DNA of 64,000 bases from positions 9,779 to 73,778 of the forward strand of contig JBBECS010000050.1 in NCBI GenBank assembly GCA_040881685.1, given 5' to 3'. Each line of letters begins with the position of its first letter. The stretch's first letter is position 1. Under the pieces are notes generated by a model. That model was not told where the DNA came from, searched no databases, and saw nothing but the letters and a program-made list of their open reading frames with translations. Source of the stretch: Acidimicrobiia bacterium (GTDB lineage Bacteria > Actinomycetota > Acidimicrobiia > IMCC26256 > PALSA-555). This document shows, one piece after another, positions 42,677-47,420 of the stretch. The translations under genes were made by a program, and so were the position numbers.

Positions 42677-45547
42677 ATGACCACACTCCCGGAGCTGGAA
42701 GAGCCCGACGCCTTCGTGCGTCGGCACATCGGTCCGGACGACGCCGAGCAGCGCGAGATGCTCGACCTGCTCGAGTACACGTCACTCGACGGGCTCACGG
42801 ACCACGCCGTGCCCGTCACGATCCGTGATCGAACACCGCTGGCGCTACCGGACGCGTGCGACGAAGTCACCGCGCTCGAGCTGTTGCACGAGCTCGTGGC
42901 GCGCAACACCATCGCGACCTCACTGATCGGCATGGGCTACTCGGGCACGGTCACGCCCAACGTGATCCTGCGCAACGTGCTCGAGAACCCAGCCTGGTAC
43001 ACCGCGTACACGCCGTATCAGCCCGAGATCTCCCAGGGTCGTCTCGAAGCGCTCCTGAACTTCCAGACCATGGTGACGGACCTGACGGGGATGGAGATCG
43101 CCAACGCCTCGCTGCTCGATGAGGGCACCGCCGCCGCCGAAGCCATGACGTTGTGCCACCGCATGAACCCCGACGCGGGCACGACGTTCTTCGTCGATGC
43201 CGACTGCCATCCTCAGACGATCGCGGTCGTCGAGACGCGCGCGATGCCGTTGGGGCTCGACGTTCGCGTCGGTAATGCCGAGGCCGACGTCCCGCCCGAC
43301 GGGGTGTTCGGCGCGTTGATCCAGCAGCCCGGCAGCAGCGGCGTGCTGCGCGACCTCAGCCCCCTCGTCGACCGCCTGCACGGCCAAGGCGCGCTCGCGG
43401 CGGTCGCGGCCGATCTCCTCGCGCTGGCGGTGATCGTTCCGCCGGGGGAGCAGGGCGCCGACGTCGTCGTCGGGTCATCGCAACGGTTCGGCGTGCCCCT
43501 TGGCTACGGCGGCCCGCACGCCGCGTTCATCGCCACCCGCAGCGAGTACCAGCGGAGCCTGCCGGGTCGCCTGGTCGGCGTCTCGGTGGACTCGGGCGGC
43601 CGCCCCGCGTTCCGGCTCGCGCTCCAGACTCGGGAGCAGCACATTCGTCGTGAGAAGGCGACGAGCAACATCTGCACCGCGCAGGTGCTGCTGGCCGTGA
43701 TGGCCGGGCTCTACGGCGTGTACCACGGACCCGACGGGATCCGCGCGATCGCGCGCCGAATCCACCGGTTGACCGCTGTGCTGGCCACCGGGCTGCGCGA
43801 CGCCGGGATCGACGTGATGCACGACGCCTTCTTCGACACCGTGACCGTGCGTGTGCCTGGTCGAGCGGCGGCGATCGCCACCGGTGCGCGCGCACGCGAA
43901 ATCAACCTCCGCGAGGTGAACCGAGACACGCTCGGCATCTCACTGGACGAGACGACCACCCGCCGCGTGGTGCAACAGGTGTGGGAGGCATTCGGGATCT
44001 CGGCCGCGGTCGACGACGTCGACGCTCACACCGAGGTTGCGATCCCTGCGGCCCTTGCACGCACGTCCGACTTCATGACCCACCCGGTGTTCCACTCGCA
44101 CCGTTCGGAGACCGCGATGCTGCGCTACCTCCGACGGCTCGCGGATCGCGATCTCGCGCTGGACCGCACGATGATCCCGCTCGGTTCGTGCACGATGAAG
44201 CTGAACGCGACCGTGGAGATGATCCCGGTCACCTGGCCGGGGTTCGGGTCGATCCACCCGTTTGCGCCGGTCGACCAGGTCGGCGGCTACCTCGAGCTGT
44301 TCGCCGACCTCGAGACGTGGTTGTGCGAGATCACCGGGTACGACGCGGTGTCGCTCCAGCCCAACGCGGGCTCACAGGGGGAGCTCGCCGGTCTCCTCGC
44401 GATCCGCTCGTACCACCGCAGCAGGGGGGAGGAGCACCGCAACGTCTGTCTCATCCCGGCATCCGCGCACGGGACGAACGCGGCGAGCGCAGCCATGGCC
44501 GCCATGCGCGTGGTCGTCGTGAGCTGCGACCACCACGGCAACGTCGATGTCGACGACTTGAAGACCAAGGCCCACGAGCACGCCGACACGCTGGCCGCGC
44601 TGATGGTCACATACCCATCGACGCACGGCGTCTTCGAGGAGCAGATCCGAGACGTGTGCGCGGTCGTGCACGAGCACGGCGGCCAGGTGTACCTCGACGG
44701 CGCCAACCTGAACGCGCTCGTCGGCGTCGCGAAGCCGGGACACTTCGGTGCCGACGTATCGCACCTCAACCTGCACAAGACCTTCTGCATCCCTCACGGC
44801 GGGGGTGGACCCGGCGTCGGACCGGTGGCAGTGCGCGCGCACCTTGCGCCGTTCCTGCCCAACCACCCACTCGTGGCCGAAGCCGGACCAGCGACCGGCG
44901 TGGGCCCGATCTCCGCGGCGCCGTGGGGATCGGCCGGCATCCTGCCGATCTCGTGGGCGTACATCCGCTTGATGGGCGGGCCCGGACTGCTGCGCGCCAC
45001 CCAGGTGGCGATCCTGAGCGCCAACTACGTCGCCCGGCGGCTCCACGAGCACTACCCGGTCCTCTACGCGGGCCCCGAAGGACTCGTCGCCCACGAGTGC
45101 ATCCTCGACCTGCGCGCGATCACTCACGACACCGGCGTCACTGCCGAGGACGTGGCGAAGCGGCTCATCGACTTCGGCTTCCACGCGCCGACGATGTCGT
45201 TCCCGGTCGCAGGCACGCTCATGGTCGAGCCGACCGAGTCGGAGAGCAAGCACGAGCTGGATCGCTTCTGCGACGCGATGATCGCCATCCGGTCGGAGAT
45301 CGGGCGGGTCGAGCGAGGGGAGTGCTCCGTCGAGGACAGTCCCCTGCGTCACGCGCCGCACCCGGCCGGCGACGTCGTCACCGACCAATGGTCCCGCGCG
45401 TACTCGCGTGACGAGGCCGCCTTCCCAACCGGCGGATCGCCCGATGACAAGTACTGGCCACCGGTCAGCCGCATCGACAACGCGTACGGGGACCGCAACC
45501 TCTTCTGCTCATGCCCGCCGATTGAGGCCTACGCCGAAAGGGAATGA
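42677..45547 (+). CDS. gcvP: Glycine dehydrogenase (decarboxylating), P protein
   Basis: [51 protein letters not shown]. Confidence 0.98.
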
Positions 45548-45554
45548 CGGGTTC

Positions 45555-46445
45555 GTGATCACCGCACAGCCAGGAATCTTCGCTCAGGGCACGCGCTCGC
45601 AGTACCACCTCGAGTTCGACGTGCGTCCCGGCACCAAGCCGGCAGCCGTCGCCGCAGCCGTCGCCAAGCTGCGCGAGCCGCTCGTCACCTCAGGCGGCAC
45701 GAACATCGTGGTCGGGTTCCGCGCCGACCTCTGGCGCAGCATCGCGCCGGACAACACGCCCGAGAACGCGCACGACTTCGCAGGCATCGAAGGCGACGGA
45801 CGGCGCGTGCCGGCGACACCGCATGACCTGTGGGTCTGGCTGCACGGCACCGGCCCCGACGTGCTGCTCGACAACGCCCGCGCCGTGGGGGCCGCGCTCG
45901 CACCGGTCGCGGAGCTCGCGCAGGAAGAGCCCTGCTTCGTGTACCTCGACAGCCGTGACCTCAGCGGCTTCATCGACGGCACCGAGAACCCTCCGGTCGA
46001 AGACGCACCGGACGTCGCGCTCGTCCCCACCGGTGCACCAGGGGAGGGCGGCTCCCACGTCATCACCATGAAGTGGGTCCACGACCTCGCCAAGCTCCAC
46101 GCCCTCTCCGTCGAGGAGCAGGAGGCCGTCATCGGCCGCACCAAGCCCGACAGCCAAGAACGCGACGACAAGCCCGACACCGCCCACATCAGCAGAGTCG
46201 TCGTAGAAGACGAGAACGGCGAAGAGCTAGAGATCTACCGCCGCAGCGTCCCCTACGGCCGCATCAACGAGCTCGGCCTCTACTTCGTAGCCTTCAGCAA
46301 CGACCCCACAAAGTTCGAGATCATGCTCGCCAGAATGTTCGGCACAGCCGACGACACACACGACCACCTCACCGACTTCACCAAACCAGTCAGCGCAGCC
46401 TTCTACTTCGCCCCGTCACTCACAGCCCTACGCGACCTGGCGTAG
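45555..46445 (+). CDS. Dyp-type peroxidase
   Basis: GFIDGTENP, HISR, IYRRSVPYG, GLYFVAF. Confidence 0.92.
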   Translation: MITAQPGIFAQGTRSQYHLEFDVRPGTKPAAVAAAVAKLREPLVTSGGTNIVVGFRADLWRSIAPDNTPENAHDFAGIEGDGRRVPATPHDLWVWLHGTGPDVLLDNARAVGAALAPVAELAQEEPCFVYLDSRDLSGFIDGTENPPVEDAPDVALVPTGAPGEGGSHVITMKWVHDLAKLHALSVEEQEAVIGRTKPDSQERDDKPDTAHISRVVVEDENGEELEIYRRSVPYGRINELGLYFVAFSNDPTKFEIMLARMFGTADDTHDHLTDFTKPVSAAFYFAPSLTALRDLA

Positions 46446-46495
46446 CGGCGCATCTCGCCCTCCCGCGTTCTCCAGCAGCCCGCCAAAGTCTGGCA

Positions 46496-46523
46496 ACTTG
46501 ACATAACGAGGCTTATCGGCACT
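46496..46523 (-). other. dif: dif site (XerCD chromosome-dimer resolution site)
   Basis: Minus strand AGTGCCGATAA-GCCTCG-TTATGTCAAGT (11-6-11), matching the actinobacterial dif pattern; lies between convergent genes at the strand-bias switch. Confidence 0.9.
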
Positions 46524-46530
46524 TCGGCGC

Positions 46531-46947
46531 TCAGCCTTCACCGGCCAGCACGCCGCAGTCCCCCAGGAAGTCGAGCAGGCCGGGCGCCAGGTTCTGGTCA
46601 CCGAGCTCGTCGACAGGCGTCCAGGCGGCTTCTGTGGCGTCGTCGCCGGCGATCAGTGAGGTGTCTGGTTCGAGGACCGTGACGGCAAAGTCCAGGATCA
46701 CGAAGTGCGGCCCGCCCGGCGCGTCGTGGATGCGCTCGACCCAGCCGAGGAAGCGGTCGACGACCACGGGGATCCCGGCTTCTTCCGCCACCTCTCGGAT
46801 CACCGCCTCGTGCAGGGTCTCGCCGAGCTCGACCCGCCCGCCCGGTACCGACCATGTGCCCGCCGCGGGGCCGTGACCACGACGCACCAGGAGGATCCGC
46901 CCGGCGTGGAGCGCCACAGCGCCCACGGCGACCTGCGGCGCGTTCAC
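46531..46947 (-). CDS. NUDIX hydrolase
   Basis: WSVPGGRVELGETLHEAVIREVAEEAG, AGDDA. Confidence 0.9.
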   Translation of the reverse strand: MNAPQVAVGAVALHAGRILLVRRGHGPAAGTWSVPGGRVELGETLHEAVIREVAEEAGIPVVVDRFLGWVERIHDAPGGPHFVILDFAVTVLEPDTSLIAGDDATEAAWTPVDELGDQNLAPGLLDFLGDCGVLAGEG

Positions 46948-47420
46948 TCTGAGGAGCGCAGGGATCGGTGCATCACGAGTGACCGCGCGGTGAAACCCTG
47001 CTCTTCGAAGAAGTTCTTGGTCGCGCGGTGGCCGGGGAGTGCCATCGTGTCGATGCCGATGCACCCGCGCTCGGTGCAGAAGTCGATCAACGTCGCGGCC
47101 ATCGCCTCCCCCACACCCACCGACCGTGCGCCGGCCTCCACGAACAGCTCGGTCACGCGACCGAGTCGCTCCCCCGTACGCATCGTCTCGATCTCAGCGA
47201 CGCCGAAGCCCACGGCCGAGGCATCGATCGCGCCCACGACGACCAGCGCATCCTGGTGGTCGATCAGCGGCTGATACGTCTCGTCGAGCGGCTCGGGTCG
47301 TGCTTCACGGGCGAGCCACACGTCACCGCCGCGCATCGATCCGAGCTCTTCGCGCAACCCCTGCGCGAGGCGAACGATCTCCTCGAGATCGTCGGGGGTC
47401 GCGCGCCGGCAGCTCTCCAC
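46944..47420 (-). CDS. GNAT family acetyltransferase
   Basis: ELFVEAGARSVGVGEAM, ALPG.RATKNFFE..GF. Confidence 0.85.
   Translation of the reverse strand: MESCRRATPDDLEEIVRLAQGLREELGSMRGGDVWLAREARPEPLDETYQPLIDHQDALVVVGAIDASAVGFGVAEIETMRTGERLGRVTELFVEAGARSVGVGEAMAATLIDFCTERGCIGIDTMALPGHRATKNFFEEQGFTARSLVMHRSLRSSE

What the first reader, a model, noticed from the sequence alone, without database searches (positions are those of the whole stretch)
46070..46495. One-sided, strand-specific mutational footprint in the ~400 bp next to dif
Seen: in the last ~125 codons of the dyp gene, third positions become almost only C or A. By hand count I find about 13 A-ending Val/Thr/Pro/Ala/Ser/Leu/Arg codons (GTA, CTA, ACA, AGA, CCA, TCA), only 3 G-ending ones (all in the last 11 codons) and no T-ending codons. 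The 5' half of the same gene uses G-ending codons freely, and the protein stays intact. This corresponds to C-to-T and A-to-G change on the minus strand, the signature of single-strand deamination. It lies on the XerD-arm side of dif; the other side shows at most a weak echo. Inference: a recurrent process at dif (FtsK/XerD activation, fork fusion, or gap/resection repair) exposes one strand over a defined tract. I know of no description of this.
Basis: partly seen in the sequence, partly recalled or inferred. Interest (0 to 1): 0.75.

Follow-up and report, generated by a model that had tools for sequence, protein, structure and literature searches.

The report
G-poor gene tail running into dif
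The last 120 codons of a peroxidase gene that is transcribed straight into the chromosome's dif site are recoded so that synonymous positions are almost only C or A; this looks like selection on the transcript, probably to stop RNA polymerase before dif, and not like DNA damage.

Summary
From 46047 to 46412 the dyp gene has 55 consecutive four-fold sites without G or T. That is the longest such run in the 3.1 Mb genome; the next is 28. The same sequence occurs in three independent assemblies.

The deamination reading fails on five counts:
- Two-fold A/G sites keep G (14 G to 5 A).
- Most lost G became C, not A.
- The 50-bp spacer beside dif is little affected.
- Congeners that lost dyp show nothing beside dif.
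- Genes beside dif that read away from it show nothing.

The link to dif is nevertheless real. In 94 dif loci of the order, tails of genes reading toward dif are extremely G-poor far more often than 584 control tails in the same loci (5/69 vs 1/584). This occurs on either side of dif and in at least seven gene families.

The genome's second most G-poor tail, rsmG, stops 16 nt before its only two parS sites.

Best reading (about 0.45): selection for a C-rich, G-poor, unstructured RNA tail, like a Rho loading site, that stops or clears RNA polymerase before XerCD-dif and ParB-parS. No transcript data could be obtained.

The parts
45555..46445 (+). dyp, a DyP-type peroxidase gene (296 aa), transcribed toward dif
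   Evidence: Pfam Dyp_perox_C 1.1e-43 and Dyp_perox_N. Orthologues lie beside dif in G003, G007, G009, G010 and G025.
46047..46412 (+). Recoded tract: 55 consecutive four-fold sites that are only C or A, and all two-fold C/T sites are C. The protein is intact.
   Evidence: Longest G-free run in the genome (next 28). RNA of the last 300 nt is the least structured of 1432 windows.
46446..46495 (+). 50-nt spacer between the dyp stop codon and dif. It is C-rich but contains G and T. It lacks the hairpin that all six close relatives have here.
   Evidence: Sequence. Fold z = +0.2 to +0.9 here, against -2.6 to -5.1 in G001, G002, G003, L048, L049 and L050.
46496..46523 (-). dif site. XerD arm 46496-46506, central region 46507-46512, XerC arm 46513-46523.
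   Evidence: Unique in the genome. Conserved and single-copy in relatives, with almost no hits to the control pattern (0, 2). Gene orientation switches here.
46531..46947 (-). NUDIX hydrolase gene, convergent with dyp, stop codon 7 nt from dif. Its tail has an ordinary G/C mix.
   Evidence: Pfam NUDIX 1e-20. Gene call in L045. Four-fold string.
42677..45547 (+). gcvP (glycine dehydrogenase) upstream of dyp, used as an internal control with ordinary codon usage
   Evidence: Gene call with GDC-P Pfam. Four-fold, Y2 and R2 strings.

Best explanation
The tract is a product of selection on the transcript, not of DNA damage.

In this lineage the 3' tail of the gene that is transcribed into dif has been recoded so that every site where C is synonymous carries C, with A as second choice. 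The result is a C-rich, G-poor and almost unstructured RNA of about 360 nt that ends 50 nt before dif.

I infer that this works as a loading tract for the termination factor Rho, or an equivalent RNA-level termination aid. RNA polymerase coming out of dyp would then be stopped, or removed when it stalls, before it runs into the XerCD-dif complex and the convergent NUDIX gene. The same logic applies to rsmG, whose similarly recoded tail ends 16 nt before the genome's only two parS sites.

Shown: the composition, its extremeness, its persistence across diverged relatives, its enrichment at dif-adjacent tails that read toward dif, its association with hairpins, and the presence of Rho.

Inferred: that Rho or termination is the selective agent, and that protecting dif and parS is the benefit.
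For: 1. The rule is 'C wherever C is synonymous'. Four-fold sites are C44 A11 G3 T0 and two-fold Y sites are 36C:0T, but two-fold R sites are still 14G:5A. That fits selection for C content, not a G-to-A mutation pressure.
2. The tail is C-rich in all five members of the clade: tail G counts are 3, 7, 10, 11 and 15 of 58, against 34-45 of about 110 in the heads. Synonymous sites between them are close to saturation. A persistent force is therefore needed.
3. In 94 dif loci, tails reading toward dif have G<=6 of 40 four-fold sites in 5/69 cases against 1/584 control tails in the same loci (Fisher 6e-5). For G<=8 it is 10/69 against 9/584 (4e-6). This holds on both sides of dif and in DyP, GcvP, DUF1697, C26 peptidase, GNAT, NUDIX and M3 peptidase genes.
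4. Dif-adjacent genes reading away from dif show nothing (n=48). The effect follows the transcript, not the DNA strand.
5. G-poor tails go with stronger hairpins between the stop codon and dif (Spearman 0.56, p 1.6e-6). This is a terminator-like architecture.
6. Genome-wide, tails of convergent genes gain C (+3.3%) and lose G (-3.4%) relative to their own bodies. Operon-internal tails do not (+0.3%, -1.6%; p 1e-5).
7. The two most G-poor tails among about 2200 genes are dyp (into dif) and rsmG (into the only two parS sites). The rsmG tail is kept in all four congeners.
8. The tail RNA is the least structured coding stretch sampled.
9. A Rho gene is present.
10. Nucleoprotein-induced pausing is known to aid Rho termination (PMC4337669).
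Against:
- In M. tuberculosis, full-length Rho with an N-terminal insertion selects Rut sites without a significant C>G bias (PMC13650167). This genome's Rho has such an insertion.
- Whether Rho acts on polymerases stalled at protein roadblocks is unsettled (PMC10310618).
- About 360 nt is longer than a rut site needs, and it lies inside a translated region.
- Several G-poor tails in relatives are not unstructured RNAs.
- This genome has the most extreme tail yet has lost the hairpin that relatives keep.
- Only one side of dif is affected in each locus, and most dif loci show nothing.
- The excess of A over T (11:0), seen strongly only here and in L129, is not predicted by Rho's YC preference.
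- Gene calls were crude, and related genomes are not independent: four of the ten extreme tails are from one genus.
Confidence: 0.45

Rival explanations
1. A recurrent process at dif (XerD/FtsK activation, fork fusion or resection) exposes the minus strand as single-stranded DNA over about 400 bp on the XerD side. C-to-T and A-to-G deamination there gives G-to-A and T-to-C on the plus strand.
For: - The strand asymmetry is extreme, and A greatly exceeds T.
- Changes specific to this lineage in the tail are enriched for changes to A: 17 of 30 against 10 of 50 in the head.
- A becomes denser toward dif.
- In L048 an unrelated gene inserted next to the XerD arm also ends in C/A-only codons.
- dif is a known fragile site in E. 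coli (PMC8213236).
Against: - Two-fold purine sites are not converted: 14G:5A against 3G:11A at four-fold sites, with a baseline ratio that is equal in both classes.
- Most G was replaced by C, and this genome's A sits opposite C in relatives.
- The spacer and the last 11 codons beside dif are the least affected.
- There is no bias beside dif in G001 and G002.
- There is no XerD-side specificity across 94 loci, and no effect when the neighbouring gene reads away from dif.
- Third-position substitution counts per codon are not higher in the tail than in the head.
- Dif-linked breakage in E. coli is two-sided and spans kilobases.
- The rsmG tail has the same style far from dif.
Confidence: 0.06
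2. A transcription-dependent but non-adaptive mutation bias. RNA polymerases queue or stall at tightly bound XerCD-dif or ParB-parS complexes. Repair or damage in the last few hundred base pairs then becomes strand-asymmetric, and this drives the coding strand toward C and A.
For: - The effect needs transcription toward the site.
- It occurs at both dif and parS.
- It spans a few hundred bp, about the length of a polymerase queue (inference).
- In this genome the left arm of the ancestral hairpin has decayed in the same G/T-to-C/A direction.
Against: - The known asymmetries go the wrong way. The exposed non-template strand loses C by deamination and loses G toward T or A, which would make the coding strand T/A-rich rather than C-rich (established knowledge of transcription-associated mutagenesis).
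- Two-fold purine sites are spared.
- No rate increase is seen in the tail.
- Most dif and parS neighbours show nothing although the sites are conserved.
Confidence: 0.17
3. The tract is a DNA-level signal for the segregation machinery. It would be a polar composition or motif array read by FtsK, SMC or ParB next to dif and parS, and not an RNA feature.
For: - The two top tails abut the two unique segregation sites.
- Polar guide motifs for FtsK are known to concentrate near dif (PMC2680272, PMC3384302; listed, not read).
Against: - Known FtsK guide motifs are G-rich on the strand that runs toward dif. Here that strand is G-poor (recalled from established knowledge; the papers listed were not read).
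- A DNA signal should not depend on gene orientation, yet dif-adjacent genes reading away show nothing.
- The tract is anchored to the stop codon, 42-265 bp from dif, and not at a fixed distance from dif.
- No repeated motif was looked for.
Confidence: 0.1
4. Ordinary codon optimisation. C-ending codons are the translationally preferred ones, and the tail is simply the best-optimised part of a well-expressed gene, with some drift.
For: - Highly expressed gene clusters in this genome are C-rich at four-fold sites (G4 about 0.2, C4 about 0.7).
- The whole dyp gene almost lacks T at two-fold sites in all orthologues.
Against: - The tail is more G-poor (0.05) than any other gene tail; apart from rsmG the next is 0.17.
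- It is confined to the 3' part of the gene.
- It carries 13 of the rarest A-ending codons (GTA, CTA, ACA, AGA, CCA, TCA).
- G is also lost at non-synonymous positions.
- The affected genes are unremarkable enzymes.
Confidence: 0.08
5. The 3' half of dyp is a recent recombinant or foreign piece from a donor with that composition, or a remnant of an element integrated at dif.
For: The dif flank is an insertion and deletion hot spot in this clade: DUF222-HNH and lipoprotein gene insertions, and dyp deletions.
Against: - The tail protein aligns colinearly with all orthologues.
- Nucleotide identity to G003 is no lower in the tail (0.81) than in the head (0.77).
- All clade members share the C-rich tail.
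- I know of no organism with C/A-only synonymous sites (my own knowledge; no donor search was run).
Confidence: 0.03

Closest known systems
Rho utilisation (rut) sites of Rho-dependent terminators
   Same: Both have a C>G bias, few G, weak RNA structure and a position at the end of a transcription unit, often followed by a pause hairpin. A Rho gene is present.
   Different: This tract is about 360 nt long and lies wholly inside a translated gene. It is visible as complete recoding of synonymous sites and is tied to dif and parS. Rho with an N-terminal insertion in M. tuberculosis does not select C>G sites (PMC13650167). No termination has been shown here.
Replication-associated strand skew that switches at dif
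   Same: Both are strand-asymmetric compositions located at the terminus next to dif.
   Different: The sign is opposite to the usual leading-strand G/T excess. The magnitude is about ten times the genome's four-fold skew (-0.87 against about +/-0.1). It covers 0.4 kb of one gene and depends on gene orientation.
Single-strand deamination gradients (vertebrate mitochondrial DNA; clustered strand-coordinated mutation)
   Same: Four-fold sites on one strand are almost free of G and T.
   Different: In those cases all purine-ending synonymous sites shift to A, and non-coding DNA shifts too. Here two-fold A/G sites keep G and the adjacent spacer is little affected.
Terminus fragility at dif in E. 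coli (division-induced breaks, RecBCD resection)
   Same: It is a recurrent DNA transaction centred on dif.
   Different: It is two-sided, spans 7-90 kb, and no local composition footprint is reported (PMC8213236).
Nucleoprotein-assisted Rho termination (bridged H-NS filaments)
   Same: DNA-bound protein complexes pause RNA polymerase and favour Rho termination (PMC4337669).
   Different: Here the proposed obstacles are XerCD-dif and ParB-parS, and the evidence is only comparative sequence composition.

Membership tests
Rho-dependent terminator / rut site | C>G bias with few G over at least about 80 nt of RNA | tested here: met
   GC skew is -0.21 to -0.27 over 46100-46600. Four-fold sites are C44 G3.
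Rho-dependent terminator / rut site | Weak RNA secondary structure | tested here: met
   The last 300 nt has MFE -73.6 against -135 +/- 13 and is the least structured of 1432 windows. This is not general in relatives' G-poor tails.
Rho-dependent terminator / rut site | Rho encoded in the genome | tested here: met
   Pfam Rho_N, Rho_RNA_bind and an ATPase domain; 574 aa with an insertion of about 150 aa.
Rho-dependent terminator / rut site | Transcripts end downstream in a Rho-dependent way | not testable with these tools
Rho-dependent terminator / rut site | Downstream pause element or hairpin | tested here: not met
   There is no significant hairpin between the stop codon and dif in this genome (z +0.2 to +0.9). 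It is present in six close relatives and correlates with G-poor tails across the order.
Single-strand cytosine/adenine deamination footprint | G-to-A shift at all synonymous purine sites of the complementary strand | tested here: not met
   Two-fold R sites are 14G:5A and four-fold sites are 3G:11A. The genome baseline A:G is equal in both classes.
Single-strand cytosine/adenine deamination footprint | Acts on DNA regardless of coding status and gene orientation | tested here: not met
   The spacer is little affected. G001 and G002 show no bias. Genes reading away from dif show none.
Replication strand skew | Leading strand enriched in G and T, with magnitude similar along the replichore | tested here: not met
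   The plus strand left of dif is co-oriented with the genes yet is C/A-rich. The local four-fold skew is about -0.87 against about +/-0.1 in 10-kb bins.
dif (XerC/XerD chromosome dimer resolution site) | 28-bp site with two 11-bp arms and a 6-bp centre, one per chromosome, at the convergence of the replichores | tested here: met
   Unique in the genome. Single-copy in 127/185 genomes of the order with almost no control hits. Gene-strand switch at the site. Recombination itself was not tested.
Translational codon optimisation | Use of the codons preferred in highly expressed genes along the whole gene | tested here: not met
   The bias is restricted to the 3' 40% of the gene. It includes 13 rare A-ending codons and is more extreme than any other tail in the genome.

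The most novel reading that the evidence does not exclude
Genes transcribed into a chromosome's unique segregation sites (dif, parS) are recurrently recoded at synonymous sites into C-rich, G-poor tails. These tails would act as transcription insulators, by Rho loading or an equivalent mechanism, that protect XerCD-dif and ParB-parS complexes from incoming RNA polymerase. If so, a functional requirement of chromosome segregation would be readable directly in codon usage.
Probability: 0.35. Interest if true: 0.7.

Novelty: new variant of a known kind. Interest (0 to 1): 0.6.

Why it matters
If the reading is right, codon usage at the ends of certain genes records a conflict between transcription and the chromosome-segregation machinery. 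That gives a purely sequence-based way to find where cells must keep RNA polymerase off DNA-bound complexes.

It would also give a concrete, testable case for an open question: whether Rho acts on polymerases meeting protein roadblocks (PMC10310618 calls this unclear).

It would further show that synonymous sites can be under strong local selection in high-GC Actinobacteria that have not been cultured.

If instead a local mutational process is at work, it would be a new strand-specific footprint of protein roadblocks.

Tried and rejected
- **Overlapping genes.** The alternative-frame ORF 46073..46501 is a by-product of having no T at dyp third positions. I reasoned through the other sense and antisense frames, and they contain stops or would need impossible amino-acid alphabets.
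- **Known RNA families.** No Rfam match at E<=1 in 45400-46800.
- **Promoters and terminators.** No sigma-70-like promoter or U-tract terminator in 45300-47300, so an antisense promoter at dif is unsupported.
- **Raw GC-skew scan**. The tract ranks fourth among 300-nt windows, but the scan is confounded by amino-acid composition. The four-fold-site statistic is the specific one.
- **Mean third-position skew in 44 relatives**. No average difference between the XerD side, the XerC side and distal windows. The effect sits in the extreme tail of the distribution and needed the larger sample with in-locus controls.
- **Hairpin compensation.** I supposed that the extreme tail compensates for the lost hairpin in this genome. 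This is contradicted across loci, where G-poor tails go with stronger hairpins.
- **Parsimony direction counts**. These are biased at near-saturated sites, so I used them only as a description of composition differences.
- **Scripts.** YC-dinucleotide content, motif discovery in the tails and phylogenetic correction were therefore not done.

Full report
**1. What is there**

The finding lies in the 3' part of a DyP-type peroxidase gene, window 45555..46445, plus strand (Pfam Dyp_perox_C 1e-43). Fifty nucleotides after its stop codon lies a 28-bp dif site at 46496..46523, with the XerD arm facing dyp.
- The site is unique in the 3.1 Mb genome.
- It is single-copy in 44 of 61 and in 127 of 185 related genomes, with almost no hits to the control pattern.
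- It sits where gene orientation flips from mostly plus to mostly minus.

On the other side a NUDIX gene (46531..46947, minus) ends 7 nt from dif. The organism is an uncultured member of the Acidimicrobiia (source names).

**2.

| Four-fold sites | C | G | A | T |
|---|---|---|---|---|
| dyp before 46080 | 59 | 34 | 13 | 5 |
| dyp from 46080 on | 44 | 3 | 11 | 0 |
| Genome-wide (fraction) | .454 | .391 | .072 | .083 |

- All 36 two-fold C/T sites are C.
- The run of 55 consecutive four-fold sites without G (46047..46412) is the longest in the genome. The next is 28.
- In windows of 50 four-fold sites the minimum G count is 0 here and 3 in the next best genes.
- The RNA of the last 300 nt folds at -73.6 kcal/mol, against -135 +/- 13 for 716 other gene tails and 716 gene bodies. 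It is the least structured of all windows sampled.
- The DNA is identical in two NCBI assemblies and a Logan contig, so it is not an artefact.
- In this genome the NUDIX tail across dif and the upstream gcvP tail are ordinary.

**3. It is not a deamination footprint**

A minus-strand C-to-T pressure appears as G-to-A on the plus strand, and it should act on every synonymous purine site.
- In the genome the A:G ratio is the same at four-fold sites (0.18) and at two-fold A/G sites (0.19).
- In the tract it is 11:3 at four-fold sites but 5:14 at two-fold sites.

So G was removed only where C is an allowed synonym. The rule is "C wherever C is synonymous", with A as a minor second choice.

Comparison with the closest orthologues points the same way (G003 at 82% aa; metagenome contigs L048, L049 and L050 at 86-87%).
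- Where this genome has A, relatives mostly have C (six of seven sites against G003).
- Against the majority state of the four closest relatives, the tail of this genome shows C>A 11, G>A 6, G>C 5 and C>T 0.
- Third-position differences per codon are no more frequent in the tail than in the head.
- The non-coding spacer beside dif still has about 12 G and 8 T in 50 nt (my count from the sequence).

**4. It is not tied to the XerD arm or to DNA position**

- All five clade members have a C-rich dyp tail. G counts in the last 58 four-fold sites are 3, 7, 10, 11 and 15, and these do not follow distance to dif.
- In L048 another gene has been inserted between dyp and dif. The dyp tail is still C-rich 0.8 kb away, and the inserted gene itself ends with 12 C, 6 A, 1 G and 0 T.
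- Two congeners that lost dyp (G001, G002) show no bias in the 400 bp beside the XerD arm.

**5. But it is tied to dif in another way**

I fetched +/-6 kb around dif in 94 genomes of the order. I compared the last 40 four-fold sites of genes that end within 300 bp of dif and read toward it with 584 other gene tails in the same loci.

| Threshold | Tails beside dif | Control tails | Fisher p |
|---|---|---|---|
| G<=6 | 5/69 | 1/584 | 6e-5 |
| G<=8 | 10/69 | 9/584 | 4e-6 |

(the window's own gene is excluded)

- The extreme cases lie on the XerC side: GNAT in one genus, NUDIX in G038, and an M3 peptidase in G175 with C31 G2 A7 T0.
- They also lie on the XerD side: DUF1697 in G013, gcvP in G029, a C26 peptidase in G062, and dyp in G003.
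- Only one side is affected per locus.
- Four of the ten extreme cases come from one genus, so the number of independent lineages is about six.
- When the dif-adjacent gene reads away from dif, the strand running toward dif shows no C excess (n=48; mean equal to distal controls).

The effect therefore follows the 3' end of a transcript that runs into dif. It does not follow a DNA strand defined by dif.

G-poor tails also go with stronger hairpins between the stop codon and dif (Spearman 0.56, p 1.6e-6).

**6. A parallel at the origin**

The second most G-poor tail in the genome belongs to rsmG on another contig: G4 is 0.08 in the last 120 codons and the next gene is at 0.17. Its stop codon lies 16 nt before two perfect parS palindromes, GTTCCACGTGGAAC. 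These are the only two in the genome.

The rsmG tail is C/A-rich in all four congeners and one further genus, although the proteins are only 65% identical. It is ordinary elsewhere in the order, even though parS follows rsmG there too.

About three gene tails point at these sites, out of some 2200 genes. That both top-ranked tails are among them is very unlikely by chance; my estimate is of order 1e-6.

**7. A weak general trend**

In this genome the last 60 codons of convergent genes gain C (+3.3%) and lose G (-3.4%) at four-fold sites relative to their own bodies. Operon-internal genes do not (+0.3%, -1.6%; p 1e-5).

**8. Most likely mechanism**

The pieces fit selection for a C-rich, G-poor RNA tail at the ends of transcription units. 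It is strongest where the polymerase would otherwise run into a tightly bound segregation complex.
- The closest known device is a Rho loading (rut) site. Rho is encoded here.
- Nucleoprotein-induced pausing is known to help Rho (PMC4337669).
- RNA polymerase can dislodge bound proteins (PMC10310618).

I put this reading at about 0.45. The reasons for caution are these:
- There are no transcript data.
- Rho with an N-terminal insertion in M. tuberculosis does not prefer C>G sites (PMC13650167).
- Whether Rho acts at roadblocks is unsettled.
- Some G-poor tails in relatives are not unstructured.
- This genome has lost the hairpin that its relatives keep.
- The strong A-over-T excess seen here and in G175 is not explained.

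**9. Rivals**

- A transcription-dependent mutational asymmetry at roadblocks (0.17) would explain the dependence on orientation. However, the known asymmetries predict loss of C from the coding strand, not gain.
- A DNA-level polar signal for FtsK, SMC or ParB (0.10) conflicts with the orientation dependence and with the G-rich nature of known guide motifs.
- Codon optimisation (0.08) conflicts with the rare A-ending codons and with the restriction to the tail.

**10. Verdict**

The link to dif is real, but it is neither sided nor a damage footprint.

I found no description of dif- or parS-adjacent recoding of gene tails in the papers searched. I file it as a new variant of a known kind, a terminator-type composition signal, pending transcript data.

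Noticed in passing
L049:1025-1127, L050:1950-2052, L048:4655-4723; also G001, G002 and G003 (L032, L034, L033); window 46446-46523 for comparison: In all six close relatives the XerD arm of dif (plus the start of the central region) is the 3' arm of a long inverted repeat. Its 5' arm is a mirror copy of the XerD arm 20-75 bp upstream (fold z -2.6 to -5.1). It could be a second XerD binding half-site or a terminator-like hairpin. This genome has lost it (z +0.2).
   Followed up: partly
L048:4900-6017 and L049:1289-2416; L048:3973-4596: A DUF222 gene (HNH-endonuclease type by my reading of the G000 copies; Pfam gives DUF222) is inserted between dif and the NUDIX gene in two relatives. In one of them a lipoprotein-like gene is also inserted between dyp and dif. 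The dif flanks are an insertion hot spot in this clade.
   Followed up: no
L032:4500-5000 (G001), L034 (G002), L031 (G026): dyp is reduced to a 33-codon N-terminal remnant in G001 and is absent in G002, where gcvP is followed by a strong hairpin and then dif. In G026 it is apparently broken into several frames.
   Followed up: partly
Own genome contig C17:114022-114091 (outside the window; L051:1413-1482): The genome's only two parS sites (GTTCCACGTGGAAC) lie 16 and 72 nt after the rsmG stop codon, upstream of parA. The 297-nt spacer folds better than shuffles (z -2.7).
   Followed up: partly
Own genome C29:685-1773 and C53:189358-190806 (outside the window): Two DUF222-type HNH endonuclease genes (family inferred from their sequence, not scanned) also end in C/A-rich, G/T-poor codon tails; for example the last 50 four-fold sites of the C53 gene are C40 A4 T0 G6. 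The cause is unknown.
   Followed up: no
Own genome C37:14203-15927 (outside the window): Rho carries an insertion of about 150 aa, rich in Asp, Ser, Gly and Arg, between Rho_N and the RNA-binding domain. Codons 130-211 of the gene are themselves G-poor at four-fold sites (5 G in 50).
   Followed up: partly
L094 (G120), both sides of dif: The XerD-side gene tail is G-rich (C11 G28) and the XerC-side tail is C-rich (C27 G8). The same DNA strand is therefore G-rich across dif. This is the only locus where the bias looks strand-continuous.
   Followed up: no
window 46073-46501 (+): A 142-aa ORF in another frame spans exactly the tract. It is open only because dyp third positions lack T, and all of its codons would start with C or A. 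It is not a gene.
   Followed up: yes
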